A stretch of DNA of 59,763 bases from Desulfobacterales bacterium (GTDB lineage: Bacteria > Desulfobacterota > Desulfobacteria > Desulfobacterales > JAFDHS01): contig JAUUWG010000002.1 of the NCBI GenBank assembly GCA_030589165.1, forward strand, positions 1-59,763. The letters are read 5' to 3'. A program made the translations under genes and the position numbers. The notes beneath the pieces are model-generated. The model was not told where the DNA came from, did no database searches, and was given only the letters and a program-made list of their open reading frames with translations. Position 1 is the stretch's first letter. Every line of letters begins with the position of its first letter. Of this stretch, positions 29,174 through 45,510 are shown one piece after another.

Positions 29174-31579
29174 ATGAATGTAATGGAGAAGAAAATCGAC
29201 TGTCTCATCATCCTTGGAATGCATAGAAGCGGAACCTCTACGCTGGCTGGATGCTTAAACCTGCTCGGCCTGGATCTTGGTGAAAATCTCATGCCTCCCG
29301 GTCAGGGCAATGGAGACGGACATTTTGTAAACAATGACCTGATCCTGGTCCATGACATCCTGTTGCGGGACCTCGGCTGCAAATGGGACATGGTCGGCAA
29401 CCTGCCCCGGGATTGGCAGGAATCCGAGGCTGCGGACAGGGCCGGAAAAAGCATCAAATCGATCCTGGAACGTAATTTTCCCTCTAATAAAATCTGGGCA
29501 GTCAAGGATCCCCGCATGTGCAGGTTCATGCCTCTGTGGCTTCCTCTCCTGAAGGAGATGGGAATCAATCCGGGCCTTATTTTGAACCTGCGCCATCCCC
29601 TGGAAACGGCCCGATCCCTCGCCCAAAAGGATGAATTCGACCTGCGAAAAGGTTTTCTCCTCTGGCTCTCTCATTACAGAGAAGCCTTCAGTGCCTGCCG
29701 GGACAATTCAAACGTGGTCATCACCTATGACCAGCTCTTGGCCGATCCTGTATCCACGCTCAAATTCATCAGCGAATCCCTTGATGTCGATTATCCCAGG
29801 TCTCTGCGAAAAACCTACCCGGAAATTCTGGATTTTATCCGCCCCGAAATGAAACACCAACACAGTGGCCCCTCCCAAAACAAGGAAGAATCCGGGTTTG
29901 CCCATTTTATTCATTTTTATGAGCAGATTCGCCGGTTCTGTGTGGAAAGAACAACGCAGCTCACTGCCGAAGCCGGTAAAAAGCCCGGGAGTTTTCAATA
30001 CGATACGAAATTGTTGCCATCAGTACTGCAACATTTCTCTTACAAGGATTCTGTTTCAGGTGTCCGAAATTCAAAGCAGGAAATGACCGTACTCGCCTCA
30101 GGCCGTTTATTCAACGATATTCTGTCCCTTATCGGCGATCATGAACGGGTTCAGCACAGCCTGCATTTGGAAAAAGAGCGCAGGCTTATGAACAGTACAA
30201 AGCCTGGAACCACTCTTTTCGCTCAGGTGTATTTCCCACAAGAGCAGGGTGCCGTCTTTATTGAGGAAAAGTCCAAAAAAATTCTGCTGGCCCCGGTCGA
30301 ATGGCAGGAGATCACAGTATCGGTACCTGATCCGATTCTTGTCAAAGACAAAGGTTTGCGCCTGAACCCGTTGAATACCAGAGGGATTGTACATATTTCC
30401 AGCATCAGGCTGGTGAATTCAGCCACCGGGGAAACGGTCTTCAAGATTGAAAAACCCGAAGAATTTGAGAAGTGCCGGATCAAGGAGGATGGCTTCTCCC
30501 TGCCCGGACAGGATGGTTTGGCCCTTTTTGTATTCAGTCATGACCCGCGGATCATTCTTCCTTCAATCCCTGACTTACCGGACTGCCCTCTGGAACTGCG
30601 GGTCTGGATCAAGGCCCAGACAAATCAGGAGGAGATCAAAAATCTCTGGATGCAGGAACAAACGGCCAAAGAAGCGCTGGAATCAGTAAAGCAGCAGATG
30701 GAAACCGACCTCGCCGAGGTCAAAACTCAATTGACTGCAGCGCGTGCAGAAACACAGCAAGGGCAGGAGCGGATTAACCAGTTGAATCTGGAAAATTCCA
30801 GGCTTTCCAGCAGTAATCATCTTTACGCCGAAAAAAACAAGCAGCTCAAACGCTGGATGGACCAACTCCAAAACGATTTCAACGCGCTCATGGACTCTAA
30901 ACGATGGCGGACAGGCAATGCGCTTATCCGATTCATTGAGATAGTTCTTTTAAAAGGCCGAAAGCCAGGCGCTGCTCACCACATGCAACAGACATTTGCA
31001 TCTTTTAACTCCATGCCGGATAAGAAACAGACTGAATCCCAGTTTCACCAATCATGGAATTTTGATCAAAAAGTTACTCTTGACCGCCTGATGCGGCAAC
31101 TGAAAAACGATGTATCAGCCTTGTCCAAATCAGCCCGATGGAAGACGGGAAACGCCGCGATACGAATTGTTGAAATCATGCTTCTGCGAGGCAGACCCCG
31201 CCTGGCCCTGAACCATATGCAGGAGATATTCAGCGAGTTTCACACAAAGAAAGATCATGGCCAAAATATTTCGCCCTGGTTAATGCAGGAATGGATGCGT
31301 CAGCTTGAATCCGACTGCCAAGATATTCTGGCATCAAGGCGTTGGCAGGTGGGCAACAGCCTGGTCCGAGGATTGGAAATGCTTTTGCTGCGAAAAAAGA
31401 GGCCCCTGGCCACTGATCACATGCAGAAATTGTTCATTCAATTCAGTCAAGGGGAATACTCATATCATAGCAATGATACGTATGAACAGACTGCTAATAT
31501 ATATCCTTCTCAATTCAACACGTATGTCTCTGTTGAGCAAGCGGCAGGCGAGCCTTATACGCTTCGGTCACCGCTTTAG
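29174..31579 (+). CDS. Sulfotransferase-domain fusion protein: N-terminal sulfotransferase, beta-rich middle domain, coiled coil, three C-terminal RW repeats
   Basis: PAPS P-loop-like ILGMHRSGTSTLAGCL. The middle domain is homologous to that of ORF 40567. The three repeat modules centre on SKRWRTGNALIRFIEIVLLKGRKP, SARWKTGNAAIRIVEIMLLRGRPR and SRRWQVGNSLVRGLEMLLLRKKRP. Confidence 0.75.
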   Translation: MNVMEKKIDCLIILGMHRSGTSTLAGCLNLLGLDLGENLMPPGQGNGDGHFVNNDLILVHDILLRDLGCKWDMVGNLPRDWQESEAADRAGKSIKSILERNFPSNKIWAVKDPRMCRFMPLWLPLLKEMGINPGLILNLRHPLETARSLAQKDEFDLRKGFLLWLSHYREAFSACRDNSNVVITYDQLLADPVSTLKFISESLDVDYPRSLRKTYPEILDFIRPEMKHQHSGPSQNKEESGFAHFIHFYEQIRRFCVERTTQLTAEAGKKPGSFQYDTKLLPSVLQHFSYKDSVSGVRNSKQEMTVLASGRLFNDILSLIGDHERVQHSLHLEKERRLMNSTKPGTTLFAQVYFPQEQGAVFIEEKSKKILLAPVEWQEITVSVPDPILVKDKGLRLNPLNTRGIVHISSIRLVNSATGETVFKIEKPEEFEKCRIKEDGFSLPGQDGLALFVFSHDPRIILPSIPDLPDCPLELRVWIKAQTNQEEIKNLWMQEQTAKEALESVKQQMETDLAEVKTQLTAARAETQQGQERINQLNLENSRLSSSNHLYAEKNKQLKRWMDQLQNDFNALMDSKRWRTGNALIRFIEIVLLKGRKPGAAHHMQQTFASFNSMPDKKQTESQFHQSWNFDQKVTLDRLMRQLKNDVSALSKSARWKTGNAAIRIVEIMLLRGRPRLALNHMQEIFSEFHTKKDHGQNISPWLMQEWMRQLESDCQDILASRRWQVGNSLVRGLEMLLLRKKRPLATDHMQKLFIQFSQGEYSYHSNDTYEQTANIYPSQFNTYVSVEQAAGEPYTLRSPL

Positions 31580-31666: not shown

Positions 31667-34600
31667 ATGAATAAAAACCATGACATTCAGCTTTTAAAGA
31701 CATCGGACCTGTCCGGATTCCATTATTCCAATCCGGAAGGCATTGCCGTTGTCATGCCTTGCATTGATACCGAAAAGGGCATGACAACGGCCCGGAATCT
31801 TTCTCGGCGGGCTGGCATGCCTTGTAAGGTCCTGATCGTTCATGACAGCCGACACCAAGGGTTCATCAAAACATTGAATGACGCTGCCCTGAAAATATCC
31901 GCTCGCCATATCGTCTATTTGGCTGAAGATGCCTATCCGGGACGCAATTGGCTTGTCTGCGCCTATCACACTTTGGAGAAAAGCGGTAAGGGGTTGCTGG
32001 CTTTTAACGACGGCAAATGGAAGGGACGCATTGCCTCTTTCGGTATGGTCAGAACCAAGTGGGTCAAGTCATTGTATGATGGCAAGCTTTTTTATCCGGG
32101 ATACGAATCCCATGGGGCAGACAACGAACTGACTGTCATTGCCCGGGTCCGGAATATGCATGCGTATAACCCGGACTGTACGCTTGTGGAGTATGACCCG
32201 GTCAAAGACTTTGGCGGTTCCAACCCAAGAGATAGAGAGCTCTTTCAAACTCGCTTTGTAAACGGCTTTGATGGAATGGTGCCCTTGAAAAAGCTTAAAA
32301 AACTGGCAAAAGAGTATAATGTAAAAATGCACCTGAAAAATCATGAAAATTTGACAAAGGGGTACAATGTGATTTGTGAGCCACAAAAAAACAGAATCGG
32401 CATCTCCATTATCATTCATGCACGTAGTGGCGCAACCCCGCTGGATCGCCTGCTCTCTGCTTTTTACCAAGTCAACACCTATCAACCAGTTGAATTCATT
32501 GTCATTGATAATACCCTCAACGATCAGACACGAAAGGTTGTTGCCAAATATGCAGCAAATGATTCTATTCGTCATCTAAAACGTAACGAAAATGAATCCT
32601 TTGCAATTTCCAATAATTTGGCTGTCAAAAAGGCAAACTATCCTTATCTGCTTTTTTTGAGCACGGATATCATCTACACCAGCGATGTGCTGCCCCTGGC
32701 AGTTGCCCAGTTGCAGGATGCGAACATCGGCGTAGTGGGCATTCGGCTGGACGATTCCCCCCCGAGCCTGCCGCCCGGCAATCTCCCCGGCGTACGGCAC
32801 ACGGGCATCAAGTTCGTCCATGATCCGGCCCATGAATTCTACAGGCCTCTTCAGTTGAGTCTGAAAACCATTGAGGAAGCAAAAAAAGTTCCCAGCAGCA
32901 TTTATCCGGCCGTGGCCGGAGCCTTCCTGCTCTGCCGCAAGGGGGAGTTTGAAAAGCTGGACGGATTTTGCGAGGAGTACGACTACGGGTTCGAGGATAT
33001 TGATTTCTGCCTGCGGATAGGCTCGAAGCTGAAGAAGAAGTGTTTGTGCATCAATGAGGTCAGCCTGGGGTATGTTGGCGGAAACACACGGCATATGGAG
33101 CCTGGTGTTGCGGGGACAATTCAGGTCAAAAACTTACAACTGCTGAACAAGAGAGCAGGAGGCCAAATCAGCAAGTTTCCGACCCAAAAAACCGGATCAC
33201 AAAAATCATTCCACATATCCCAAGAACATGCGCCATTCATAAAACAAACATCAACCGTTTTCAGCAAATCATCGCCAAATATTGGCCAACGAATTTTATA
33301 CATTATTCATGATGGTGGTGGTGGTATGGTTTATACATCGTTTGATTTGATGAAATCGATGAATCAACGTAATACATCTTTTTTATTAAAAACAGGCAAA
33401 AAAGAATGGAAGCTTTATGAGTACATTAACAATGAAATAGCTTGTAAACATAAGTATGATTTCAAAATAGACTGGAAGGAAATTGTTGATATTAATAATG
33501 AACGAAAAGCTGCTTTAGATGATATCTATAATAAACTCAACCCTACTCTGATACATTTGAGAGTCCTTATCGGCAACGGACCTTATCTCATTGATTTTTT
33601 TAAAAATAAAAAACTGCCTGTTGTGCTCTCATTTCATGACTTTTCCGCGATATGCCCGAATATACAACTAATCAATAATGGCAAGTTCTGCTATGGAGAT
33701 TGTGAACTGCATCACCATCAAAATGATTGCCATTATTCAAAAAGCTGGTTTGGAAATAGAAGACGACTGCGTGGAGTTTTTCGCTACAATTGGGCTGAGA
33801 GGGTTGCTGAGTCTCTTTCTAAATGTGACGCTTATATCGTAACATCAAATTATACTAAGGAAATTATTTTAAAAAATTATCCGATGTTGGATCCTGAGAA
33901 ATTTCACAATATTGAACATGGTAGAGATTTTGAAAAAAAATATTCATTTTTTAAGGAATATAAGAATGGAAATTGCTGCGATATAATTTTCTTTGGCGCG
34001 CTAAATGAGGCGAAAGGATGTTCACTTGTGTCTGACATCATCAGGATAAATGAGGACAACGACGGGCCACTGAAATTTCATATCATCGGTGGGATCACGA
34101 ATAAGTATAAAAAACGATTTTCCGCGTACAAAAATGTTATTTTATACGGTAAGTATGAACGAGATGATTTAAGAAATTACTTTGAAGAGATTAAACCAAC
34201 CCTTACTATTTTACCATCAATATGTCATGAAACATATTCTCACGCGCTCACGGAGTCATGGGCTTATGGTGTTCCTGTTTTAGGGTCTTCGCTTGGAGCA
34301 ATTGGCGAAAGAATACGCGTTCATGATGGAGGATGGACGTTGGATCCAGTTCATAAACAACAATGGTATAATAAAATATTAAAAATAATCAAGGACAAAA
34401 AGGATTATTTACAAAAACTTAGTAATATTAAACAAATTGATATAAAAAGTCTGGATCATATGGCAGATGAGTATTGTATGGTTTATCGTAACTTGTTGAA
34501 GCCTCAGCAAAAGATTTCATCTGCAGCGAAAATTCAATCGTTCTTAAAAAAAGTAAAATTTAAATCACCAGAAAAGAAAGAGAAAAATAATCAGAAACGG

Positions 34601-37600
34601 AAAAATGAACGTCATGTCAAACTCCTGAGGCTTAAGCTGCTGAACCTTGGTATAACCGAGCGTGCTTTCGCGGACTTGAAAAAGCTGGCAGCGGACGATT
34701 CGGAACCTTACACGCAAAGGCTGGCCGCCTGGGAGTTGGCTTTATGGCACGCCAACAAGTGTAATAGAGAAGACGCCCGTCAATGTTTAGATCTGTTGCC
34801 CATAGCCACTCAAGATGAAAACGATCCGGAGCGTTTGCGCCGGGTTGCCATCCTTAAAGCTGAATGTCATGATATTCTGGGTGACTTAGAGGCTGGAAAA
34901 AAAGTAATCCAACATGCCCTATTTTCAGGCGACGATGCAGATCTTTACTTTGCCGCCGCGAACTTGGAGCCATCGATTTCGGGACGAATAGATTATATCA
35001 ATAAAGCACTTGAGCTATACGGCATTTCAAAAATCACATTTGACCCTATCGCCGGCCGACCACCCTATGACTGCCTGCGCCCAGGGCCTGGAACAAGAAA
35101 GCGGCCACAAATAACCAAGGATTCTTCCAAAGTTACCGTGATAGTACCAGCATATAACGCTGAAAAGACTATACAGACTGCCCTTGATTCCATTCTTGCT
35201 CAAACTTGGACCAACTTGGAAGTATTGGTGGTTGACGATTGCAGCACGGATGGCACCGTGGAAGTGGTCAAAGAGTATGAAATGAAAGATTCCAGGGTTA
35301 GACTGATCAAGGCTGAAACCAACCAGGGGCCTTATGTGGCGCGCAACTTGGCGCTCAAAGCGGCAACAGGAGATTTCGTAACCTGTAATGATGCTGACGA
35401 CTGGTCCCATCCCGAAAAAATTGAAATACAAGCAAAACATCTAATCCAAAATTCAAATTTTTTGGCCAACGTTTCACGATGGGCACGGGTTACCAATGAT
35501 CTGAAATTCTATCGGCGGGGCAATCCTGGTTTTTATATACAATTAAATATATCTTCATTAATGTTTCGTCGTGGGCCTCTGATGAAGGCTTTAGGCTACT
35601 GGGACAGCGTAAGATTCGGTGCTGACACTGAACTGTTCAATCGAATAAAAAAGGTGTTCGGGAAAGATGCGATTGAAGAGAATACGCTTGGACTCCTCTC
35701 TTTCGCAAGATATACTGAGTATTCTCTTACAGAGAATAAGAAATTTGGTTATCCGGGCTTCCCCATGGGTGCGAGAAGTGAATATCGTGAGAGTTATTTG
35801 CACTATCATGGTTTGGCAAACAAACTGCACTACGAATTTCCTATGAAATCTCGACCTTTTCCCGCACCCGGAGTCATGCGTCCGGTCAGAGAGACTAATT
35901 CTTTCTCAAATCGGCATTTTGAAGTAGTCTTCGTATCTGATTTTCGACATCCTGGCAATGCCATCTCTATTGCTGAGGGAATCAAGGCACAAAAAAGAAA
36001 GGGCGTTCGAACCGGCCTTGTCCAGATAGCGCGCTATGACTTGGCCTTAAGAAATTATAATATTGATAAGGAGATACGTGAGTTAATTGATGGTGATCAT
36101 GTTCAACTGCTTGTTTACGGAGAAGAGATCACTTGTGACATGTTGATAATCAGAGATCCTTCCATCCTTCAGGAAAAACAGCGCTATATTCCAGAAGTGA
36201 AAACAGGAAATGTTAGCGTTGTCGTAGAACAAGCGCCTGAGAAAGATTCTGGTTCTGGAGGCCTTGTCTATGACATCAGGCGATGCGCAAAGCATCTTTA
36301 TGAATACTTTGGCAAAAGCGGTGTTTGGCATCCCACTGACGCTCAGGTCCGACATGCGCTTTATAAACTCCACGGCGATGACTTGAAGGCAATAACCCTG
36401 GCAAATGAAGATTGGTCTAATAATACAGATGTAAAAGAATTCCAAAAGACCTCGCGCCCTCAAAGTGGATATAAGATCACTAACCAAAATTTTGATATGG
36501 TGAATGATAATGAAGTTATAAAACTTATGGACGTAAAAGATCTCTGGTCATTTGCATATACGGATACTGAAGGTGTAGCGGTAATCATGCCCTGCATTGA
36601 TACAAAAAAGGGCATGGATACAGCTAGTATCCTTTCCAAAAGGGCTGGAATTGATTGCAAAATATTGATAATTCATGACACCTTATGTCAAGGGTTTATC
36701 AAAACCCTGAACGATACGGCAGCGAGGGTCTCTACCAGATATATTGTATATCTTGCAGAAGATGCCTTTCCGTCGATAGACTGGCTGCGTTGCGCCTATG
36801 ACATCTTGGGAAAAAGCGGTAAAGGACTGCTGGCATTCAATGATGGTAAATGGAGGGGACGTATTGCGGCATTTGGTATGGTCAGGATCGAGTGGGTCAA
36901 AACTTTGTATGGGGGCTTGATATTTTATCCGGAGTATAATGCTCACAAGGCGGATAATGAACTGACGGTCATTGCCCGAGCCCAAGGAATGCATGTGTAT
37001 AATCCGGAATGTACGCTTATAGAGTATGATCCGAATAAGGTGTTTAAAGAAAATATTCCAAAAGATAAAGAGATTTTCAGAAAACGATTTCAACAGGGCT
37101 TTGACGGGCTTGTACCTTTGGAGAAACTCGCGCCAATGGCGAAAGAATATTTTGTCCCATGGAATGTTGAAAAGCCAATGTCAGCACAAAAAAAAACAAA
37201 TTTTAAACAGAAAAATTTTAGCAAAATTGAATCATATTCTCAAGGCGCTAAATCAAATAAATTTACTTTTTTTAAAAAAAAATCTAAGTCAAAAGCTTTA
37301 CGTAATGTTTCGGATACCTTTGCTCTGTATCGTATTATCGGCAATGATTTGCACCCGAGACACAAAAAAAGACAATCACGTGAGAACCTGCGGTTTATAT
37401 TAGAAAATGAGCCTGATTTCGAAAATTGTGAAAAGAGATTCATCATCAATCGCATTATTGATCAGAATGAAGAACAGGCTATCATTAAATTGCTCAAAGA
37501 CCATAAACGTGAATATATACAGATCCGGTTTAATCCCGATGAATATCGCAAAATCGGATTTGACACCGACTGCTTTCCGGAGCCGGGGTACCTTTCCAGT

Positions 37601-40408
37601 AAAAAATTCGAAGCTTTTGACAATATCAAAAAAGATAGAGCTACCGCTGCAATTTACCGTTTGAAAAATAACTATGTTATGAACAACAACGGCGCTCGGA
37701 ACGCCGCGCTGCGTGATGGAAGGAGACGGGCAAAGTGGGTCCTCCCCTGGGACGGCAACTGTTTTATTACAACAAAAGCGTGGGAGCGAATCCATACCGA
37801 TGTCACTGCCTCGCCCCACCTGAAATATTTTGTCGTGCCCATGGCTCGCGTCCTTGATAATACGCAATTGTTATCAAAGGGATTTGCCCCTGCGCCGGTT
37901 GAGGAGCCGCAGATTATCTTTCGCAACGATGCCAAGGAAGAGTTCAACAAAGCTTTTTGTTATGGACGTAGACCCAAGGTGGAGCTTTTCTGGAGGCTCG
38001 GCGTCCCTGGCAAATGGGATCACTGGCCGGAAGACGATCCGTGGGATCAAAAGCGTTTACCGGAATCCATTGAAGCCCGCCAATTCGGGGTGGCAGGCTG
38101 GGTGGCCAGGTTGTTTTCCGGTATGAAGGATTTGGAACTTGAGAACAAGCAAAGTATTACAAAAAGAGTTTTAGCACGAAATGAAGCGATCATTACAACA
38201 CTGAATCATGTGGATACAATGGTTGCAGGCATGTCCAATGATAAGCCCACCAGTTTTCGGTCCGATATTCTGGAAGCAGAGTGCTTGAAATACCAAGCAG
38301 GAGATGACCCGGCGCTTGCCAATGTTGTTGAAAGGCTGATCTTGGATGCCGAAGATGCGCTAACGCACGGGCCCTATTCAGTCACGGACAAAACAACGTT
38401 GCCACCAAGCGGCAACGCAAACGACTACTGGCATCCTGCCCCTTACTGGTGGCCCAACCCGGATACGCAAGACGGTTTGCCTTATATTCGAAAAGACGGG
38501 GAGCGGGCGCCCGGCACCAGTATGTATGAGGCGGAAAGTGATAAGTATGATCGCACGCGTTTGCAGCGTGTGTTCGATGATTCCTTCATTCTGGCGCTGG
38601 CATGGAAGTTTTCAGGTGAAAAGAAGTATGCTGAGCATGGCGCACGAATTCTGGAACGTTTTTTCGTGGATCCAATTACGCGAATGACGCCTCACTTAAA
38701 ATACGGCCAAGTCAGAATGGGACACAATAAGAATATTGGTTCCAGCACCGGGATCATCGAGATGAAGGATATGTATTATTATCTCGATGCCGTGCGCATG
38801 ATGACCGCGGCCGGTGTTGTTTCAAGTGACGATCTCGGTAGTTTTAAAGATTGGCTGAAAACATATTTGGACTGGCTGTTGTATTCCCCCCAGGGAAGAG
38901 TCGAATGCGGATCGGCCAACAATCATGGCGCCTGCTATGATCTTCAAGTATCTTCCATTGCCTCTTTTTTGAATGATAAATCAGTCCTGTTTGAAACCTT
39001 GGCTCGCGCTCAGTCCAGAATCTCTCAGCAATTTGCACCTGACGGCTCACAGCCCGATGAATTAAAACGGAAAACGACAGCGCATTATTGCCTTTTTAAT
39101 TTTCAAAGCTGGTTAAACCTGGCAGAAATAGCCTCTCGGTATAATACGGATTTCTGGTCCTATGAAGCACCAAATGGTGCAAGCTTGATTAAGGGTGCGC
39201 AATGGCTTCTGGGTCATATGGGGAAAAAGTGGCCCTATCAGCAGATAGATGATTTTGACGCAGAACGCTTTTACCCCATATGGTTTGCTGTTTCTGCCGT
39301 CTCAATTAATCCACTGGGAGTCACCAATTTACCAGACTCAAAATACAAGGTAAAACCGAGATTTTTCCCACATGACGGGATTCGACCGTTTTGGAATTTG
39401 GGAGCCCAGTGCCACTCTTGTCACCACGATTCGGGTAGTAGCAGCCAACAGGTCAGTAACACCACAAAAACCAGCGTCAGATCTCAGAAGGCAGTTGCCA
39501 AAATGGATATAAATATGGTTGAATCACAACAAGTTTTCATTAACATAGACGATGCAATGAAATACGCTGAAGAAGCTATGAAGCAAAAAGACTGGTCTGA
39601 GGCGGAGAAATGCTGGCAAGAAATTTTGAATGTTTTTAGCACTACAGCAAAACCGCGTGTTACAGAGATTGCAGATGCTATGTCTGCAAAAGCTGAATGG
39701 CAAGACTATCGGTATTGCAATATCTGCGGTTGCCCGCTATTTGGCAAAATGGGATCAAGAAAAAATGTAAAATGTTTAAATTGTGGATCTTTAGAGCGAA
39801 CCAGGTTGCTATATTTACATTTACAAAATTTTGAATTAATTACTCCAGATATAAAAGTTTTTCATCTGGCGCCAGAGAAAGCGCTGTACCAAGCTATATC
39901 AAAAATTATTCCTCCGTCAAATTATTTCGTTACGGACTATGATCCAAGTAGATATAGTTTTGCGAAGGGGATACAAAAGTTTGATTTATGTAATGATGTT
40001 GAGGGATTGCCTGACAATTTTTTTGATCTTATTATTCACAGCCATGTTATGGAACATGTACCTTGTAATTATAGTTTTGTTCTTAAGCATTTACATCGGG
40101 CCCTTAAAGACAATGGAAGACATCTTTGCGTGATACCGTTCATGGCAGGCTACTATGATGAATGTTTTGCCCCTCTCAGTGTTGAGGAGGCAAAAACGCG
40201 GTTTGGTCAATTTGATCATGTCAGACGTATTGGCACTAATGATATTCATAATACTCTTGGTCGTGTCATTCCAATTGATCCTGATTACGATGCTACAAAA
40301 CTATTTTCACCAGAGATTCTTTTAAAAGCCAACATTCCAGAGAATTGCTGGAAAGGTTTGACAATTCATACAGTTCTTCTACTCAAAAAGGAAGATTACA
40401 AGCTCTAA
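31667..40408 (+). CDS. Giant multi-module glycan-biosynthesis protein (2,913 aa)
   Basis: Uninterrupted ORF. Approximate modules:
- A1, unknown GT-A-like: 31690-32320
- GT2: 32393-33100
- GT-B/GT4: 33285-34500 (HETYSHALTESWAYGVPVL)
- TPR-like: 34650-35040
- GT2: 35129-35800 (VIVPAYNAEKTI..VVDDCSTDGT)
- unknown: 35909-36420
- A2, duplicate of A1: 36500-37150
- unknown B domain: 37315-38130
- alginate-lyase (PL5)-fold domain: 38250-39405 (NNHGACYD)
- Zn-ribbon + class I methyltransferase: 39706-40405. Confidence 0.85.
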   Translation: MNKNHDIQLLKTSDLSGFHYSNPEGIAVVMPCIDTEKGMTTARNLSRRAGMPCKVLIVHDSRHQGFIKTLNDAALKISARHIVYLAEDAYPGRNWLVCAYHTLEKSGKGLLAFNDGKWKGRIASFGMVRTKWVKSLYDGKLFYPGYESHGADNELTVIARVRNMHAYNPDCTLVEYDPVKDFGGSNPRDRELFQTRFVNGFDGMVPLKKLKKLAKEYNVKMHLKNHENLTKGYNVICEPQKNRIGISIIIHARSGATPLDRLLSAFYQVNTYQPVEFIVIDNTLNDQTRKVVAKYAANDSIRHLKRNENESFAISNNLAVKKANYPYLLFLSTDIIYTSDVLPLAVAQLQDANIGVVGIRLDDSPPSLPPGNLPGVRHTGIKFVHDPAHEFYRPLQLSLKTIEEAKKVPSSIYPAVAGAFLLCRKGEFEKLDGFCEEYDYGFEDIDFCLRIGSKLKKKCLCINEVSLGYVGGNTRHMEPGVAGTIQVKNLQLLNKRAGGQISKFPTQKTGSQKSFHISQEHAPFIKQTSTVFSKSSPNIGQRILYIIHDGGGGMVYTSFDLMKSMNQRNTSFLLKTGKKEWKLYEYINNEIACKHKYDFKIDWKEIVDINNERKAALDDIYNKLNPTLIHLRVLIGNGPYLIDFFKNKKLPVVLSFHDFSAICPNIQLINNGKFCYGDCELHHHQNDCHYSKSWFGNRRRLRGVFRYNWAERVAESLSKCDAYIVTSNYTKEIILKNYPMLDPEKFHNIEHGRDFEKKYSFFKEYKNGNCCDIIFFGALNEAKGCSLVSDIIRINEDNDGPLKFHIIGGITNKYKKRFSAYKNVILYGKYERDDLRNYFEEIKPTLTILPSICHETYSHALTESWAYGVPVLGSSLGAIGERIRVHDGGWTLDPVHKQQWYNKILKIIKDKKDYLQKLSNIKQIDIKSLDHMADEYCMVYRNLLKPQQKISSAAKIQSFLKKVKFKSPEKKEKNNQKRKNERHVKLLRLKLLNLGITERAFADLKKLAADDSEPYTQRLAAWELALWHANKCNREDARQCLDLLPIATQDENDPERLRRVAILKAECHDILGDLEAGKKVIQHALFSGDDADLYFAAANLEPSISGRIDYINKALELYGISKITFDPIAGRPPYDCLRPGPGTRKRPQITKDSSKVTVIVPAYNAEKTIQTALDSILAQTWTNLEVLVVDDCSTDGTVEVVKEYEMKDSRVRLIKAETNQGPYVARNLALKAATGDFVTCNDADDWSHPEKIEIQAKHLIQNSNFLANVSRWARVTNDLKFYRRGNPGFYIQLNISSLMFRRGPLMKALGYWDSVRFGADTELFNRIKKVFGKDAIEENTLGLLSFARYTEYSLTENKKFGYPGFPMGARSEYRESYLHYHGLANKLHYEFPMKSRPFPAPGVMRPVRETNSFSNRHFEVVFVSDFRHPGNAISIAEGIKAQKRKGVRTGLVQIARYDLALRNYNIDKEIRELIDGDHVQLLVYGEEITCDMLIIRDPSILQEKQRYIPEVKTGNVSVVVEQAPEKDSGSGGLVYDIRRCAKHLYEYFGKSGVWHPTDAQVRHALYKLHGDDLKAITLANEDWSNNTDVKEFQKTSRPQSGYKITNQNFDMVNDNEVIKLMDVKDLWSFAYTDTEGVAVIMPCIDTKKGMDTASILSKRAGIDCKILIIHDTLCQGFIKTLNDTAARVSTRYIVYLAEDAFPSIDWLRCAYDILGKSGKGLLAFNDGKWRGRIAAFGMVRIEWVKTLYGGLIFYPEYNAHKADNELTVIARAQGMHVYNPECTLIEYDPNKVFKENIPKDKEIFRKRFQQGFDGLVPLEKLAPMAKEYFVPWNVEKPMSAQKKTNFKQKNFSKIESYSQGAKSNKFTFFKKKSKSKALRNVSDTFALYRIIGNDLHPRHKKRQSRENLRFILENEPDFENCEKRFIINRIIDQNEEQAIIKLLKDHKREYIQIRFNPDEYRKIGFDTDCFPEPGYLSSKKFEAFDNIKKDRATAAIYRLKNNYVMNNNGARNAALRDGRRRAKWVLPWDGNCFITTKAWERIHTDVTASPHLKYFVVPMARVLDNTQLLSKGFAPAPVEEPQIIFRNDAKEEFNKAFCYGRRPKVELFWRLGVPGKWDHWPEDDPWDQKRLPESIEARQFGVAGWVARLFSGMKDLELENKQSITKRVLARNEAIITTLNHVDTMVAGMSNDKPTSFRSDILEAECLKYQAGDDPALANVVERLILDAEDALTHGPYSVTDKTTLPPSGNANDYWHPAPYWWPNPDTQDGLPYIRKDGERAPGTSMYEAESDKYDRTRLQRVFDDSFILALAWKFSGEKKYAEHGARILERFFVDPITRMTPHLKYGQVRMGHNKNIGSSTGIIEMKDMYYYLDAVRMMTAAGVVSSDDLGSFKDWLKTYLDWLLYSPQGRVECGSANNHGACYDLQVSSIASFLNDKSVLFETLARAQSRISQQFAPDGSQPDELKRKTTAHYCLFNFQSWLNLAEIASRYNTDFWSYEAPNGASLIKGAQWLLGHMGKKWPYQQIDDFDAERFYPIWFAVSAVSINPLGVTNLPDSKYKVKPRFFPHDGIRPFWNLGAQCHSCHHDSGSSSQQVSNTTKTSVRSQKAVAKMDINMVESQQVFINIDDAMKYAEEAMKQKDWSEAEKCWQEILNVFSTTAKPRVTEIADAMSAKAEWQDYRYCNICGCPLFGKMGSRKNVKCLNCGSLERTRLLYLHLQNFELITPDIKVFHLAPEKALYQAISKIIPPSNYFVTDYDPSRYSFAKGIQKFDLCNDVEGLPDNFFDLIIHSHVMEHVPCNYSFVLKHLHRALKDNGRHLCVIPFMAGYYDECFAPLSVEEAKTRFGQFDHVRRIGTNDIHNTLGRVIPIDPDYDATKLFSPEILLKANIPENCWKGLTIHTVLLLKKEDYKL

Positions 40409-40566: not shown

Positions 40567-43014
40567 ATGGCCAAACCTACCATTATATTAATAGGTGCGC
40601 CCAGAAGTGGCATATCCATACTCGGCGAATGCTTGAGCAAGCTTGGACTGCACGCTCTTGACGAACGGAGCCGGGCAGAAATTTCCACTATCAACCGTCT
40701 GCTTTTCCAAGACACAGACCATTCTCCAACCATGGTTGGCCCTTTGCCTCAGGGGTGGTTGAACTCGTATGGCGCGGACAAGGCCAGAGGGCGCATCCGG
40801 GGTCTGCTCGCCTCCCGACGGAATGCTGGTGGCCTCCTGTTTCTGGCTGACCCCTTGCTGTGCCGTATTCTGCCCCTATGGATGGAAGCCTTTCAGGATC
40901 AAGATCTGGAGCCACGCTTCATTCATATGGTTCGCCATCCTTATGAAGTCGCTCTTTCCTTGCAGGAAGACCAAGATATCGACCTTCTCAAAGGCCACCT
41001 AGTCTGGCTGGCATGGGTGCGGGATGCTCTAACCGGCTCTGCAAATCGTAAAAGTGTTCTGATCACTTTTGATCAGCTCATGGCAAACCCGATCACTACC
41101 CTGAATTCAGCCGGGAGATCCCTGGATATAAAATTTCCTATAGACCTGAGCACCTCATACCACGCCCTTCTAAATTTTGTTAAGCCAGGCTTGATGCACC
41201 ACCATGCAGGGATTGCTTCGGAGGCCGACAGGAAACGATTCACCCCGTTCAATCGCTTCTATGATGCCTTGCAGCTGCTCCAGGCCGGCGCCGGGGTTCA
41301 GGCAACAACACATTCCAGCCGCGGCATGATGGCCATTGGCGACCACGAGGCGGTTTCCGGCGGCGATGGTCTCCTGGACATGATGTTTCAGGTACTTGGG
41401 CATTATGAGCACAAAGAACATGGCCTGCGCACACGGGAAGAGCGGCTTTTGAGCGCCTCCCATGCGGGGCAGGCCTTGTTTGCCACGCTCTCTATCCCCA
41501 CAAGCGTCGGCGAATACAGGGCAAAGCGGATTCCTATTTTGCCTGACCAGTGGCAAAAGATCACCCTGGATATCCCCAGGCCAGACCTGCTCAACGACAC
41601 GCCTTTGCGCTTTTGTCCCCTGAATACCACGGGGGCGGCAACCATATCAGCCGTCAAACTCGTCAACCGGGCTACGGATGAGGTGCTCTGGTCCGCCCAG
41701 ACATCCGAGGACAACAACCTTGTGGCCGTGGAAGGAACAGCCTTGCGGGTTCCGGCAAAGGACAATCTCGCCTTACTCATCACCGGCAAGGAGCCTGTCG
41801 TTGTCCTTACAGGTCCTGCCCAAATGCCGGACTTTCCGGCACGAGTAGAGATATGGCTCAAGGTAAGCCAAAATCAGGGATTGCACCATGAGTCATTGCG
41901 GGCTTTTCTCAGCTTGGAGAGTTGGAAAACACTCCTGGGGACAACTCCCCAAGACTCGGATTCCGACAACTTGCTGCATTTGGCCACAGCGTTTGAAGAC
42001 GCAGGATGCTTGGCCGAAGCCGATGCAGTATTGCGCAAGGGTGTGGAAGATGAGCCAGGGGCAGTGACACTGAGAATGGCCTTTGCTGAACTCTCCATGA
42101 AGCGCAAAGACTGGCCCGAGGCTGTCAGGCGCTGGCAGGATGTGGCAGCACTTCAGGGAGAAAGCACCCCTGCCCAGGTCTACCAACGCCTGGATGAAGC
42201 TTATCAGAAGCAAAAGTCTTTTCCCAAGGGGAGCCCTGAAGAGGAAGTGCGCATTGGTGACGGTGACAAGCATGAAATGCTCTCCTTGATCCATCGCATC
42301 CTCGCACCTGAGATGTACCTGGAAATCGGTGTTCAGAGCGGGAAAAGCCTGGCTTTGGCGTCATGTGATGCAATTGGCGTTGATCCCATGCCCCAAGTAA
42401 GTGTTGTGTTGTCCGAGGGGGCCAAGGTAGTGGCCATGACCAGCGATGATTTCTTCCGCGGCCCTGCCGTTTCATTGGTGAAGAACCCACCGGATCTGGT
42501 GTTCATCGACGGCATGCACCTTTTCGAGCACACCCTGCGTGACTTCATGCATGTGGAACGAATGGCGGCTCCGTGGACCCTGGTGGTCATCGACGACATC
42601 TTTCCCGCACATCCGGCCCAGGCGGAGCGGCGGCGAAGAACGCGCGCCTGGACTGGCGACGTGTGGAAGATCTACGAGATCCTGAGCCGATACCGGCCCG
42701 ACCTGTTTCTCCTGCCTGTAAATACCTCGCCCACCGGTCTGCTCCTGATCGCCGGTTTCCAACCAGCCAACCAGGTTTTGTGGAACAACTACGACGCCAT
42801 TGTCAGCAAATATTCCGCCGGCAGGAAGCCACCGGAAGCGATATTGAAACGAGACGGTGTCCTATCCTCCAGGCACGACGCCATTCCACGCATTCTGGCG
42901 GCATTGAAAACGGGGCGGGAGGAACTGCTTGAATCAGTAACGATCATAAGTCATCTGGAGAAAGAACTCACAGATGCTTGTAATGGCTCTCGGCCGAGAT
43001 TCCCATTTATGTGA
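40567..43014 (+). CDS. Sulfotransferase - beta-rich domain - TPR - class I SAM methyltransferase fusion protein
   Basis: N-terminus IILIGAPRSGISILGECL. The middle domain (RIPILPDQWQKITLDIP...RFCPLNTTGAATISAVKLVNRATDEVLW) is paralogous to ORF 29174. The C-terminus EIGVQSGKSLALAS...VFIDGMHLFEHTLRDF...VVIDDIFP is a Methyltransf_24/CmcI-like pattern. Confidence 0.75.
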   Translation: MAKPTIILIGAPRSGISILGECLSKLGLHALDERSRAEISTINRLLFQDTDHSPTMVGPLPQGWLNSYGADKARGRIRGLLASRRNAGGLLFLADPLLCRILPLWMEAFQDQDLEPRFIHMVRHPYEVALSLQEDQDIDLLKGHLVWLAWVRDALTGSANRKSVLITFDQLMANPITTLNSAGRSLDIKFPIDLSTSYHALLNFVKPGLMHHHAGIASEADRKRFTPFNRFYDALQLLQAGAGVQATTHSSRGMMAIGDHEAVSGGDGLLDMMFQVLGHYEHKEHGLRTREERLLSASHAGQALFATLSIPTSVGEYRAKRIPILPDQWQKITLDIPRPDLLNDTPLRFCPLNTTGAATISAVKLVNRATDEVLWSAQTSEDNNLVAVEGTALRVPAKDNLALLITGKEPVVVLTGPAQMPDFPARVEIWLKVSQNQGLHHESLRAFLSLESWKTLLGTTPQDSDSDNLLHLATAFEDAGCLAEADAVLRKGVEDEPGAVTLRMAFAELSMKRKDWPEAVRRWQDVAALQGESTPAQVYQRLDEAYQKQKSFPKGSPEEEVRIGDGDKHEMLSLIHRILAPEMYLEIGVQSGKSLALASCDAIGVDPMPQVSVVLSEGAKVVAMTSDDFFRGPAVSLVKNPPDLVFIDGMHLFEHTLRDFMHVERMAAPWTLVVIDDIFPAHPAQAERRRRTRAWTGDVWKIYEILSRYRPDLFLLPVNTSPTGLLLIAGFQPANQVLWNNYDAIVSKYSAGRKPPEAILKRDGVLSSRHDAIPRILAALKTGREELLESVTIISHLEKELTDACNGSRPRFPFM

Positions 43015-44570: not shown

Positions 44571-45467
44571 ATGCACGATTGGCCATTTGTTTCCGTGATT
44601 ATTCCCGTACATAATGATCCTTACGGAATACAGCAAACGCTTCGATCATTGTTCAGGCAAGACTACCCCAAAAAACAGTATGAGATTATTGTTGTCGATA
44701 ATAATTCAAATGATGATACAATCTCAATGATTCAGAAAACAGTATCTGAATTTGAAGGTAATGTCATTGTTGAAACTGAAGAAATGCAAGGTTCGTACGC
44801 TGCGCGGAACAAAGGATTCAGTGTGTCACGTGGTGAAATTATTGCTTTTATTGATTCGGACATGACTGTTGGTTCAGACTGGATTTATAAGGGTGTTCAA
44901 TGTTTCACAAATAAAAAAAAGGATTATGTCGGTTGTAATATTGAAATATATTCATCAAAGAAAATACCGTCTTTATGGGAAAAATATGATATTATTTTGG
45001 GATTTCCCATAAAAAATTATATGAAAATCGATGGATACGCGCCAACAGCATGTCTCTTTGTAGCAAGGAACGTCATCGAAAAAGCCGGTAATTTTGATTC
45101 CAGGCTTTTATCTGGCGGTGATTGTGAATTTGGCAATCGTGCACGTAGCCACGGTTTTAAAATGTACTTTGACCAGGACAATATCATGTATCATCCAGCC
45201 AGGAATTCTTTTTCATCACTCTTTCAAAAACAAAAAAGGGTTACCCCGGGTCAGATACGCCTGCGCAGGCTTTTTCCTGAAAGATTTCCGCATAACCGAT
45301 TCAAGGATGTCGCCATTTGCTGTATTCACCTGTTCCCTGTCGCAAGTCCTGCGGTATTGTTTAAATTGTCCCGTTCAAGGGTTGACTTTTTCCCCTTGTT
45401 TGGCATTTTTTATGCTTTGCGATTGTATACGTGCTGGTTCAAATTTGCCAATAAATGTTTTTTTTGA
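44571..45467 (+). CDS. Glycosyltransferase family 2
   Basis: VSVIIPVHNDPYGIQQTLRSL...IIVVDNNSNDDT and FIDSDM motifs. Confidence 0.85.
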   Translation: MHDWPFVSVIIPVHNDPYGIQQTLRSLFRQDYPKKQYEIIVVDNNSNDDTISMIQKTVSEFEGNVIVETEEMQGSYAARNKGFSVSRGEIIAFIDSDMTVGSDWIYKGVQCFTNKKKDYVGCNIEIYSSKKIPSLWEKYDIILGFPIKNYMKIDGYAPTACLFVARNVIEKAGNFDSRLLSGGDCEFGNRARSHGFKMYFDQDNIMYHPARNSFSSLFQKQKRVTPGQIRLRRLFPERFPHNRFKDVAICCIHLFPVASPAVLFKLSRSRVDFFPLFGIFYALRLYTCWFKFANKCFF

Positions 45468-45510
45468 GATAAATAAATTAGCAGCTGATTAGATAAGGTT
45501 TTAATCCTCC

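What the first reader, a model, noticed from the sequence alone, without database searches (positions are those of the whole stretch)
31667..40408. One 2,913-codon ORF fuses about nine carbohydrate-enzyme modules, a single-polypeptide glycan assembly line
Seen in the sequence: 8.7 kb without a stop codon. By motif it contains:
- two copies of an unknown GT-A-like domain
- two GT2 domains
- a GT-B/GT4 domain and a TPR-like linker
- a further unknown Rossmann-like segment and an unknown B domain
- an alginate-lyase-fold domain
- a terminal Zn-ribbon/class I methyltransferase

Established: ABC-transporter-dependent O-antigen polymerases such as WbdA combine 2-3 GT domains, and chain terminators such as WbdD are separate proteins.

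Inference: here polymerising, modifying and chain-terminating activities seem to be concatenated in one protein beside two ABC exporters. That goes beyond described architectures.
Basis: partly seen in the sequence, partly recalled or inferred. Interest (0 to 1): 0.8.

Follow-up and report, generated by a model that had tools for sequence, protein, structure and literature searches.

The report
Giant multi-module glycan synthase gene
A real 2,913-residue bacterial gene strings together six sugar-transferase modules, a lyase/epimerase-type module with an intact active site and a recently fused methyltransferase; it is an unusually large member of a widespread but unstudied class of polysaccharide-building proteins.

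Summary
The ORF is real: 31667..40408, + strand, 2,913 codons. Two other metagenome assemblies carry identical DNA. Three 83-89% relatives carry 2,325-2,511-aa versions. Every module tested is under purifying selection (the N-terminal GT-A copy and the methyltransferase could not be scored).

- The two "unknown" repeats are GT-A folds.
- The "B domain" is a divergent GT-A.
- The "Rossmann segment" is the N-half of a GT-B whose donor half is missing.
- The lyase domain is PL38-like, with all nine BoPL38 active-site residues intact.

- Single-polypeptide polymerase-terminator proteins are already described (WbbB, K. pneumoniae O7 ORF6).
- About 100 proteins of 1,600-4,300 aa reuse these modules. 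One has nine of the ten in the same order.
- The C-terminal methyltransferase is joined through a stretch that is an intergenic spacer in a relative. No other protein found has this fusion.
- The giant has no coiled-coil ruler. The flanking sulfotransferase proteins are better terminator candidates.

The most interesting part is the conserved GT-A + PL38 didomain. It lacks a signal peptide, has about 1,400 family clusters across more than ten phyla, and has no known function.

Verdict: new variant of a known kind, moderate interest.

The parts
31667..40408 (+). Whole ORF, 2913 codons plus stop
   Evidence: Identical DNA on two JGI contigs. No transmembrane-like stretch.
31667..32341 (+). X1: GT-A-fold domain with no Pfam model (aa 1-225), acidic 'EDA' motif at aa 87-89
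   Evidence: AF2 pLDDT 90.6. Foldseek PDB hits are GT2-type GT-A enzymes (WrtF, PcManGT, TarP, TarS), E 6e-7, TM 0.5-0.65. Absent in relative L001, present in L002.
32384..33166 (+). GT2a: GT2 (GT-A) module, aa 240-500
   Evidence: Second PF00535 stretch, plus Glyco_tranf_2_5 and Glyco_transf_7C hits. dN/dS 0.26-0.30.
33284..34516 (+). GT4 (GT-B) module, aa 540-950; low GC3 (0.30)
   Evidence: PF13439 and PF00534 above threshold. Replaced by a non-homologous GT-B in relative P0004. GC3.
34619..35071 (+). Conserved 150-aa linker module, always N-terminal to GT2b; TPR/HEAT-like status unverified
   Evidence: Recurs before GT2b in more than 20 homologues. Only a weak HEAT_2 hit, E 0.049. dN/dS 0.26-0.37.
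35114..35971 (+). GT2b: GT2 module with DAD motif, aa 1150-1435
   Evidence: PF00535 at 1157-1286, whole-protein E 1.4e-56. Best NCBIfam hit is TuaG-like, far below cutoff.
35972..36481 (+). N-terminal half of a GT-B fold whose C-terminal donor-binding half is missing, aa 1436-1605
   Evidence: The homologous segment in P0009 and P0021 continues into a Glycos_transf_1 half. In the window X2 follows directly. Still constrained, dN/dS 0.28-0.38.
36509..37216 (+). X2: second copy of the GT-A-fold X domain, aa 1615-1850
   Evidence: 60% identical to X1. Fold assignment as for X1.
37289..38266 (+). B: divergent GT-A-like domain, aa 1875-2200. Motifs YRIIGNDLxPRH, NNNGARN, PWDGN, EEPQ, YGRRPKVE.
   Evidence: AF2 pLDDT 83. 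Foldseek gives TarP, GalS1 (GT92), SpsA and K4CP, E 3e-4, TM 0.3-0.45. No Pfam, NCBIfam or PDB sequence hit. Family of 1,419 50%-identity clusters.
38339..39403 (+). PL38-like lyase/epimerase domain, aa 2225-2579. Active-site residues Y2260, D2277, Q2348, E2413, N2419, H2420, R2468, H2473, Y2474.
   Evidence: PF05426, E 1.7e-72. PDB 3nfv E 2e-62 and BoPL38 8bdq E 3e-43. All nine BoPL38 residues are conserved here, and each is kept in 90-93 of the 94 family members aligned.
39404..39502 (+). 33-aa junction (AQCHSCHHDSGSSSQQVSNTTKTSVRSQKAVAK) homologous to an intergenic spacer in relative L002
   Evidence: blastn and tblastn against L002 show a stop after FWNLGIH, a second stop and a frame change in the spacer, then a new ATG.
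39503..40405 (+). TPR-like helix pair + Zn ribbon (aa 2684-2706, nt 39716-39784) + class I methyltransferase. Starts at an internal ATG with GAAGG 11 nt upstream. GC3 0.27-0.37.
   Evidence: PF08241 29.2 bits and PF13489 28.1 bits, both above cutoffs. Family motifs are conserved in standalone homologues. The nearest homologues are separate 294-364-aa genes.
29174..31579 (+). Neighbour: 801-aa sulfotransferase + beta domain + heptad-rich region + three S(K/A)RWxxGN repeats; candidate terminator/ruler partner
   Evidence: PF13469. Sequence. Its C-terminus is conserved upstream of the giant gene in L001 and L002. The sulfotransferase is fused N-terminally in P0013-P0032.
40567..43014 (+). Neighbour: 815-aa paralogue of the 801-aa protein (sulfotransferase-like + beta domain), then TPR + Methyltransf_24
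44571..47784 (+). Neighbours: GT2 (298 aa) and a standalone B+PL38 protein (757 aa, no signal peptide)
   Evidence: The cassette recurs across phyla.
47956..49597 (+). Wzm2/Wzt2 ABC-2 exporter; the Wzt has no C-terminal extension
21685..24266 (-). Wzt1 (413 aa, C-terminal extension with a weak Wzt_C match) and Wzm1
   Evidence: Wzt_C E 5.7e-4, below Pfam threshold.

Best explanation
The ORF encodes a genuine, soluble, cytoplasmic multi-module glycan synthase of an ABC-transporter-dependent pathway (O-antigen, capsule or EPS type).

Modules and proposed roles:
- Five GT-A-fold modules (X1, GT2a, GT2b, X2, B) and one complete GT-B (GT4). Each presumably makes one linkage of a complex repeat unit on a lipid-linked acceptor at the inner face of the membrane.
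- A helical linker and a half GT-B, which serve as scaffold or acceptor-binding parts.
- A PL38-type domain fused behind the B module. Its full proton-abstraction machinery is retained, so it most likely acts on a uronic-acid residue of the nascent chain in the cytoplasm. It would either epimerise it at C5 or cut by beta-elimination.
- A C-terminal Zn-ribbon methyltransferase that methylates the product. It became part of the polypeptide only recently, through loss of the stop codon and in-frame read-through of a former intergenic spacer.

Chain-length control and termination, if present, are more likely supplied by the adjacent sulfotransferase/heptad-repeat protein. Export is by the Wzm/Wzt pairs. 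The protein evolves by swapping, gaining and losing whole modules.

Shown: ORF reality, fold and family of each module, active-site conservation, the fusion junction, module plasticity.
Inferred: substrates, order of action, the role of the PL38 domain, and which enzyme terminates the chain.
For: - ORF and domains.
- No transmembrane-like segment in the giant and no signal peptide on the 757-aa paralogue.
- Identical DNA in three assemblies.
- Relatives with 2,325-2,511-aa versions from other samples.
- dN/dS of 0.13-0.38 in every module scored against the two close relatives, and about 0.95 in the X2-B linker. X1 could not be scored because synonymous sites are saturated, and the methyltransferase has no counterpart in those relatives.
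- X is a GT-A fold. B is GT-A-like.
- The half GT-B.
- PL38 similarity and nine conserved catalytic residues. BoPL38 is both a lyase and an M-to-G epimerase: bioRxiv 10.1101/2024.12.11.627697.
- Fusion junction homologous to a spacer.
- Methyltransferase standalone elsewhere, and recurrent near giant GT or B-PL38 genes.
- GC3 mosaic and uneven dS between modules.
- Wzm/Wzt pairs, further GTs (one with a GumK_N match) and sulfotransferases in the locus.
- Precedent for module redistribution in such pathways: PMC11231755.
Against: - No experimental data exist and the glycan is unknown.
- No UDP-glucose or GDP-mannose dehydrogenase gene is in the window. Only 2 of 20 related loci have one within 5 kb. 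A uronic-acid substrate therefore rests on the PL38 active site alone.
- The B-domain fold match is weak (TM 0.3-0.45) and its DxD is reduced to 'DGN'.
- The Wzt1 carbohydrate-binding-domain match is below threshold.
- The methyltransferase could also, or only, be made from the internal ATG at 39503.
- The organism is unidentified, so the envelope type is unknown.
Confidence: 0.7

Rival explanations
1. The 8.7-kb ORF is an assembly or sequencing artefact: a chimera joined through the X1/X2 repeat, or a missed frameshift or stop. The true genes are several ordinary GT genes.
For: The window is metagenomic. It has an internal 60%-identical repeat. The last module is joined through a spacer-like stretch.
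Against: - Two other assemblies give identical DNA over the whole ORF plus or minus 1 kb, with one SNP outside it.
- Three relatives from different samples carry 2,325-2,511-aa ORFs with the same module order.
- Every module scored is under purifying selection in this frame.
- The repeat copies are too diverged to mis-assemble.
Confidence: 0.03
2. The giant protein effectively ends after the PL38 domain. The C-terminal methyltransferase functions as a separate protein, translated from the internal ATG at 39503. The in-frame join is a recent, neutral or even deleterious accident, not an evolved 'terminator module'.
For: - The relative L002 has a stop, a spacer and a new ATG at the homologous place. 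L001 lacks the module entirely.
- A GAAGG lies 11 nt upstream of the ATG at 39503.
- No other lyase-methyltransferase fusion was found among 5.8 billion protein clusters.
- The closest homologues are standalone genes.
- GC3 of 0.27 marks the module as foreign.
Against: - There is no stop codon, so ribosomes translating the giant ORF must read into the module.
- The same sequence is fixed in three assemblies.
- Fusion and internal initiation are not mutually exclusive.
Confidence: 0.4
3. The PL38-like domain is a chain-terminating or chain-trimming lyase. It cuts the nascent lipid-linked chain by beta-elimination, possibly after the B module adds a sugar to O4 of a uronate. This leaves a 4,5-unsaturated uronate that cannot be extended and may mark the chain for export.
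For: - The full lyase catalytic set is conserved.
- The tight GT-A + PL38 fusion is conserved in 79 genomes and often sits next to Wzm/Wzt.
- ABC-dependent systems commonly need a non-reducing-end cap (PMC11231755).
- Wzt1 has a possible carbohydrate-binding domain.
Against: - I found no described precedent for such a cap.
- The Wzt adjacent to the standalone B-PL38 has no extra domain.
- Some family members have the lyase without B (P0024-P0032).
Confidence: 0.2
4. The PL38-like domain is a polymer-level C5-epimerase (ManA to GulA, or GlcA to IdoA) working in the cytoplasm on the residue just added by the fused GT-A.
For: - BoPL38 itself epimerises M to G with the same Tyr/His pair, and that pair is conserved here.
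- Lyase-fold enzymes used as epimerases are established (AlgG, AlgE; own knowledge).
- AglQ is a loose precedent: an alpha/alpha-barrel protein needed in lipid-linked assembly of a hexuronate-containing glycan that is later methylated (PMC3827465).
Against: - Nothing distinguishes epimerase from lyase by sequence.
- Identity of roughly 40% to degradative lyases argues for retained lyase chemistry.
- No uronate precursor genes lie nearby.
Confidence: 0.3
5. The locus is catabolic, a polysaccharide-utilisation locus, and the lyase domains degrade imported alginate or glucuronan.
For: - The closest solved structures are degradative Bacteroides lyases.
- A GH145-like BNR_4 protein with a signal-like N-terminus lies in the locus.
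Against: - The lyase domains have no signal peptide and are covalently fused to glycosyltransferases.
- The locus is dominated by GTs, sulfo- and methyltransferases and Wzm/Wzt exporters.
- There are no SusC/D-type or sugar-import genes.
Confidence: 0.03

Closest known systems
WbbB (Klebsiella pneumoniae O12 / Raoultella terrigena) and ORF6 of K. pneumoniae O7
   Same: A single cytoplasmic polypeptide combining several GT modules with a modifying or terminating enzyme, in a Wzm/Wzt-dependent pathway. Module distribution varies between systems (PMC11231755).
   Different: Those proteins have 2 polymerising GTs plus one terminator, separated by a long coiled coil (ORF6 is 1,414 aa). The window protein has six GT-fold modules, no coiled coil, a PL38-like domain and a methyltransferase attached directly at the C-terminus. 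No sequence relationship was tested or seen.
WbdA/WbdD (E. coli O8/O9a)
   Same: A multi-GT polymerase plus a separate protein carrying a terminating enzyme and a coiled coil. The window's 801-aa sulfotransferase/heptad-repeat neighbour plus the giant protein mirrors this split.
   Different: The WbdD terminator is a methyltransferase (with or without a kinase). Here the candidate is a sulfotransferase. No sulfotransferase is mentioned in PMC11231755. The ruler function is untested.
Multi-enzyme capsule polymerases (Hib Bcs3; TPR-containing TagF-like polymerases)
   Same: Several catalytic domains and helical-repeat scaffolds in one chain, in ABC-dependent capsule synthesis (PMC10299916, PMC5974469).
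   Different: Different catalytic families (phosphotransferases, ribofuranosyltransferase). Three catalytic domains rather than eight. No lyase-fold module.
PL38 polysaccharide lyases (BoPL38, PDB 8BDQ; BACOVA protein 3NFV)
   Same: E 3e-43 to 2e-62, and all nine active-site residues conserved. BoPL38 has both lyase and epimerase activity.
   Different: The known PL38 enzymes are standalone, exported, degradative enzymes. Here the domain is internal to a cytoplasmic GT protein and fused to a GT-A-like domain.
Uncharacterised giant GT proteins in databases (e.g. Hyphomonas johnsonii MHS-2 'family 2 glycosyl transferase', 2,749 aa, P0013)
   Same: They share the X, B and PL38 modules at 50-65% identity. 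The sulfotransferase is fused in these proteins rather than adjacent.
   Different: Different module order and content: sulfotransferase, coiled coil, GT2, X-X, B, PL38. They have no GT2a, this GT4 or the methyltransferase. None has been studied.

Membership tests
ABC-transporter-dependent polymerase/terminator glycan assembly (WbdA/WbdD, WbbB type) | Wzm/Wzt ABC-2 exporter encoded in the locus | tested here: met
   Two pairs: 21685-24266 (-) and 47956-49597 (+). PF01061 and PF00005.
ABC-transporter-dependent polymerase/terminator glycan assembly (WbdA/WbdD, WbbB type) | Soluble multi-GT polymerase, one GT module per linkage | tested here: met
   Six GT-fold modules and no transmembrane-like segment. 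The number of linkages is unknown.
ABC-transporter-dependent polymerase/terminator glycan assembly (WbdA/WbdD, WbbB type) | Terminating enzyme at the distal end of an extended coiled coil | tested here: inconclusive
   None in the giant protein. The 801-aa neighbour has a sulfotransferase, then a heptad-rich stretch of about 70 aa, judged by inspection only. No coiled-coil predictor was available.
ABC-transporter-dependent polymerase/terminator glycan assembly (WbdA/WbdD, WbbB type) | Wzt with a C-terminal carbohydrate-binding module that reads the cap | tested here: inconclusive
   The Wzt1 C-terminal 164 aa match Wzt_C at E 5.7e-4, 20.3 bits against a cutoff of 30.4. Wzt2 has no extension.
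ABC-transporter-dependent polymerase/terminator glycan assembly (WbdA/WbdD, WbbB type) | Non-reducing-end cap on the exported glycan | not testable with these tools
   Needs the glycan structure.
CAZy GT2 (modules GT2a, GT2b) | PF00535 match above the gathering score; GT-A DxD motif | tested here: met
   PF00535, 191.5 bits, two stretches. GT2b has DAD. GT2a has only the last Asp (STD), read from the sequence.
CAZy GT4 (GT-B) | Both Rossmann halves (PF13439 and PF00534) above threshold | tested here: met
   PF13439 29.1 bits (cutoff 28.5) and PF00534 54.9 bits.
CAZy GT4 (GT-B), segment aa 1436-1605 | C-terminal donor-binding half present | tested here: not met
   The homologous segment in P0009 continues into Glycos_transf_1. 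In the window X2 follows at aa 1615.
PL38 polysaccharide lyase | Sequence similarity to structurally characterised PL38 members | tested here: met
   8bdq E 3e-43; 3nfv E 2e-62.
PL38 polysaccharide lyase | Catalytic and substrate residues Y91, D108, Q173, E236, N242, H243, R292, H297, Y298 | tested here: met
   All nine are present in both window copies, and each is kept in 90-93 of 94 family members.
PL38 polysaccharide lyase | Beta-elimination activity on glucuronan or alginate; exported degradative enzyme | not testable with these tools
   Activity is untested. The location differs: no signal peptide, and the domain is internal to a GT protein.
Class I SAM-dependent methyltransferase | Pfam methyltransferase match above threshold | tested here: met
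   PF08241 29.2 bits (cutoff 21.2) and PF13489 28.1 bits (cutoff 27).
Class I SAM-dependent methyltransferase | Canonical motif I (GxGxG) | tested here: not met
   The position reads 'VFHLAPE'. This variant is conserved in the whole subfamily, so it is a family trait rather than decay.
GT-A fold glycosyltransferase (X and B domains) | Predicted structure matches GT-A enzymes | tested here: met
   X: E 6e-7, TM up to 0.65. B: E 3e-4, TM 0.3-0.45, weaker.
GT-A fold glycosyltransferase (X and B domains) | Assignment to a CAZy GT family; transferase activity | not tested
   No dbCAN or CAZy library was on hand. No Pfam or NCBIfam model matches either domain.

The most novel reading that the evidence does not exclude
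The conserved GT-A(B)+PL38 didomain is a previously unrecognised biosynthetic device. A polysaccharide-lyase fold works in the cytoplasm on the growing lipid-linked chain. It either installs a 4,5-unsaturated uronate cap that ends polymerisation and licenses ABC export, or performs polymer-level C5 epimerisation before export. The didomain occurs here twice and in about 1,400 protein clusters across more than ten phyla. The giant proteins carrying it would behave as module-swappable assembly lines whose glycan product could be reprogrammed.
Probability: 0.2. Interest if true: 0.85.

Novelty: new variant of a known kind. Interest (0 to 1): 0.55.

Why it matters
- ABC-transporter-dependent glycan assembly is understood from a handful of enterobacterial prototypes with two or three GT modules. 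This protein and its roughly 100 relatives show the same logic scaled to eight catalytic modules. Whole modules are swapped, gained and lost between near relatives, which is useful for reading and engineering glycan diversity.
- More specifically, there is a catalytically intact polysaccharide-lyase/epimerase fold inside a cytoplasmic biosynthetic protein. It is always partnered with an unclassified GT-A-like domain and is conserved at 40-67% identity from Bacillaceae to Proteobacteria and Bacteroidota. This points to an undescribed step in polysaccharide biosynthesis.
- That step can be tested directly in cultured carriers such as Hyphomonas johnsonii, Halomonas spp. and Peribacillus sp. SCS-155.

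Tried and rejected
- Sequence searches of the X and B domains against PDB found nothing meaningful. Fold assignment needed AF2 plus Foldseek.
- NCBIfam gave no family for the 757-aa and 801-aa proteins.
- I tested whether uronic-acid precursor genes accompany B-PL38. A Pfam census of 116 neighbouring ORFs from 20 loci found UDP-glucose/GDP-mannose dehydrogenase in only 2 loci. GT2 was the one consistent neighbour. This is inconclusive for the uronate hypothesis.
- The promoter and terminator scan of 28.9-43.1 kb gave no more than the shuffled expectation, so there is no evidence for or against an internal transcription unit.
- Taxonomic placement via the NAD-epimerase gene gave a best hit of 43% to Desulfobacterium MAGs. 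The organism is left unassigned. The Uma2 and TnpB genes are not diagnostic.
- Literature searches for lyase-GT fusions, sulfotransferase terminators or unsaturated-uronate caps found no description.
- Mis-assembly was rejected. A catabolic PUL was rejected.
- I rejected counting the 'Rossmann segment' as a ninth catalytic module.
Full report
**1. Observation**

The window holds one ORF at 31667..40408 on the + strand, 2,913 codons with an ATG start. From the base composition of the region, the chance of so long a stop-free frame is about 1e-81. The other five frames carry 90-263 stops.

Pfam confirms these domains:
- two GT2 stretches (best 1157-1286)
- a GT4 pair (PF13439 at 614-756, PF00534 at 762-914)
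- Alginate_lyase at 2238-2517 (E 1.7e-72)
- a class I methyltransferase near 2750-2824

Residues 1-242 and about 1612-1850 are 60% identical (E 1e-109). The locus holds two Wzm/Wzt ABC-2 exporter pairs, at 21685-24266 (-) and 47956-49597 (+). It also holds many further GTs, two sulfotransferase-domain proteins and methyltransferases.

**2. Is the ORF real?**

- The exact 2,913-aa product is encoded on two other JGI metagenome contigs of 23.9 and 35.3 kb. Their DNA over the ORF plus or minus 1 kb is identical to the window, apart from one SNP in the upstream gene.
- Three relatives at 83-89% identity, from unrelated sequencing runs, carry ORFs of 2,325-2,511 aa with the same module order.
- Codon-level comparison with two of them gives dN/dS of 0.13-0.38 for every module scored, including the linker module and the half GT-B. 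The X2-to-B linker evolves neutrally (about 0.95), as a flexible tether would. X1 could not be scored because synonymous sites are saturated, and the methyltransferase has no counterpart in those relatives.
- The protein has no hydrophobic stretch compatible with a membrane span.

Mis-assembly or a hidden frameshift is therefore very unlikely.

**3. Anatomy**

- *X domain, two copies.* It matches no Pfam, NCBIfam or PDB sequence. An AF2 model is confident (pLDDT 90.6) and matches GT-A enzymes of the GT2 type: WrtF, PcManGT, TarP and TarS, at E 6e-7 and TM up to 0.65.
- *B domain.* Its model (pLDDT 83) gives weaker matches, again only to GT-A enzymes: TarP, GalS1, SpsA and K4CP, at E 3e-4 and TM 0.3-0.45. 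Its invariant motifs NNNGARN and PWDGN sit where GT2 enzymes have their nucleotide-binding segment and DxD (alignment, read against the GT2b sequence).
- *Rossmann-like segment, aa 1436-1605.* It is the N-terminal half of a GT-B. In homologues P0009 and P0021 the same segment runs on into a Glycos_transf_1 half. In the window that half is missing and X2 follows directly.
- *Lyase domain.* It is closest to PDB 3NFV (E 2e-62) and to BoPL38, PDB 8BDQ (E 3e-43). The nine BoPL38 residues shown to bind or act on the +1 uronate are Y91, D108, Q173, E236, N242, H243, R292, H297 and Y298 (bioRxiv 10.1101/2024.12.11.627697). All nine are conserved here as Y2260, D2277, Q2348, E2413, N2419, H2420, R2468, H2473 and Y2474. 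Each is also kept in 90-93 of the 94 family members I aligned.
- *C-terminal module.* It passes Pfam's methyltransferase thresholds when scanned alone. It carries a CxxC...CxxC ribbon at aa 2684-2706. Its unusual motif I ('HLAPE') is conserved in the whole subfamily.

In all, the protein has five GT-A-fold modules, one full GT-B, one half GT-B, one helical linker, one PL38-like domain and one methyltransferase. The 'TPR-like' nature of the linker at aa 985-1135 was not verified (HEAT_2 E 0.049).

**4. The C-terminal fusion**

- In the 89% relative (L001) the gene ends at FWNLGIS*. The next gene is the homologue of the window's 815-aa protein, with no methyltransferase between them.
- In the 83% relative (L002) the gene ends at FWNLGIH*. 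About 78 nt of spacer follow, with a second stop and a frame change. Then a new ORF starts (MNKSQQS...KYAEEAMNRKDWPEA), homologous to window aa ~2616-2660. That ORF is only 74 aa long and carries no methyltransferase domain.
- In the window the homologous stretch is stop-free and in frame. It gives the 33-aa junction AQCHSCHHDSGSSSQQVSNTTKTSVRSQKAVAK, followed by an ATG at 39503 with GAAGG 11 nt upstream.
- A search with aa 2400-2913 found no protein that covers both the lyase part and the methyltransferase part. The closest methyltransferase homologues (61-67% identity) are standalone genes of 294-364 aa, lying beside other giant TPR/GT proteins.
- The module has GC3 of 0.27, against 0.49-0.57 for the X1, GT2a and PL38 parts.

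The fusion is thus recent and specific to this lineage. It arose by stop-codon loss next to a horizontally acquired gene. It cannot be taken as an evolved built-in terminator.

**5. Comparative picture**

The full-length search returned 99 relatives of 1,600-4,336 aa. A module map shows recurring blocks:
- linker-GT2b-half-GT-B-X, with or without B-PL38
- X-X-B-PL38 behind an N-terminal sulfotransferase and a long coiled coil (for example Hyphomonas johnsonii P0013, 2,749 aa)
- X-GT2a at N-termini

P0004 has nine of the window's ten modules in the same order, but with a non-homologous GT-B in place of the window's GT4. P0002 and P0003 lack X1. The window's GT4 module has GC3 of 0.30, and its dS against L001 is only 0.10, compared with 0.38-0.54 for X2 and PL38. 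These proteins evolve by exchanging whole modules.

The B+PL38 pair is also a unit of its own:
- The window encodes a second, standalone copy at 45511-47784 (757 aa, 51% identity, no signal peptide).
- 79 genomes from more than ten phyla carry the pair at 40-67% identity. They include Bacillaceae, Alpha- and Gammaproteobacteria, Bacteroidota, Chloroflexota, Cyanobacteria, Planctomycetota and Verrucomicrobiota. The pair is mostly a protein of about 700-800 aa, often next to a GT2 like the one at 44571-45467 and to Wzm/Wzt.
- A profile of the B domain finds 1,419 clusters (50% identity level) among 1.84 billion representatives.

**6. How it most likely works**

*Shown:* a soluble multi-GT protein in a Wzm/Wzt locus; the fold and family of each module; an intact PL38 active site; a fused methyltransferase.

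*Inferred:*
- The GT modules build a complex repeat on a lipid-linked acceptor in the cytoplasm.
- The PL38 domain acts on a uronate of the nascent chain, either as a C5-epimerase or as a lyase that trims or caps the chain. BoPL38 itself does both reactions.
- The methyltransferase decorates the product.
- Termination and length control are more plausibly provided by the 801-aa upstream protein. It has a sulfotransferase, a beta domain, a heptad-rich stretch and three S(K/A)RWxxGN repeats. Its gene is conserved upstream of the giant gene in both close relatives, and its sulfotransferase is fused to the N-terminus of the distant homologues.
- That protein's paralogue, the 815-aa downstream protein, carries TPR + Methyltransf_24 instead.
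- Wzt1 has a 164-aa C-terminal extension with a sub-threshold Wzt_C match. This fits cap-dependent export but does not prove it.

*Weak points:*
- No uronate-precursor gene lies in the window, and only 2 of 20 related loci have one nearby.
- The GumK_N match of the GT at 27714-28970 is the only other hint of glucuronate.
- The organism is unidentified.

**7. Comparison with what is known**

- PMC11231755 documents that WbbB (O12) puts polymerase, terminator and ruler in one polypeptide. It also shows that K. pneumoniae O7 ORF6 (1,414 aa) joins a methyltransferase-kinase, a coiled coil and two GT2 modules.
- The same paper notes that module distribution is flexible and that orthologues occur in cyanobacteria and proteobacteria.
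- Multi-enzyme capsule polymerases with helical-repeat scaffolds are also described (PMC10299916, PMC5974469).
- So the concept is known.

What is not described in the literature I could search:
- the scale of eight catalytic modules
- sulfotransferase-bearing partner proteins
- above all, a lyase/epimerase fold inside the biosynthetic protein

AglQ of Haloferax is only a loose analogue.

**8. Verdict**

The finding is a new variant of a known kind. Interest is moderate (0.55). It is carried less by the size of the ORF than by the conserved, unexplained GT-A + PL38 didomain and by the clear module-swapping between near relatives.

Noticed in passing
window 44571-49597: A cassette of GT2 (298 aa), standalone B+PL38 protein (757 aa, 51% identical to giant aa 1878-2580) and Wzm2/Wzt2. 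The same GT2 + B-PL38 arrangement, often with Wzm/Wzt, recurs in Ruegeria, Halomonas, Microbulbifer, Desulfobacteraceae and others.
   Followed up: partly
window 43030-44478: A BNR_4 beta-propeller protein resembling the GH145 alpha-L-rhamnosidase BT3686 (NCBIfam E 4e-101, below cutoff). It has a hydrophobic signal-like N-terminus. It may be an exported glycan-trimming enzyme inside a biosynthetic locus.
   Followed up: no
window 29174-31579 and 40567-43014: The two genes flanking the giant ORF are paralogues over about 490 aa (28% identity, E 2e-74): a sulfotransferase domain plus a beta domain. One continues with a heptad-rich region and three S(K/A)RWxxGN repeats. The other continues with TPR + Methyltransf_24.
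   Followed up: partly
window 31667-40405: Strong GC3 mosaic between modules of one ORF: GT4 0.30 and methyltransferase 0.27, against X1/GT2a 0.54-0.57. Synonymous divergence from the same relative is also uneven (dS 0.10 to 0.54). This suggests module-wise recombination or horizontal acquisition.
   Followed up: partly
window 21688-22179 (-): The C-terminal 164 aa of Wzt1 give a sub-threshold match to the Wzt_C carbohydrate-binding domain (E 5.7e-4). Wzt2 lacks any extension, so the two exporters may differ in cap dependence.
   Followed up: partly
window 25036-26211 (-) and 1029-1946 (-): A TnpB/IS605 OrfB gene sits between the Wzm1 operon and the + strand GT operon. An IS200-like Y1 transposase fragment lies near the window start.
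   Followed up: no
window 9438-12224 (-): A second multi-GT protein: 927 aa with three GT2 stretches. Next to it are a PIG-L deacetylase, a GNAT, a B12-radical SAM enzyme, a methyltransferase and a UbiA-family prenyltransferase. The whole 60-kb window is a glycan island.
   Followed up: no
L012 and L014 (genome-contig hits): Loci titled Parvibaculum sp. MAG and Candidatus Obscuribacterales MAG show identical module coordinates and identities. They are probably the same sequence binned into two differently named MAGs.
   Followed up: no
window 26609-28970: Two GT4 genes overlap by 44 nt (26609-27757 and 27714-28970). The second has a GumK_N (glucuronosyltransferase N-domain) match, E 3e-7. This is the only direct hint of glucuronate in the locus.
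   Followed up: no
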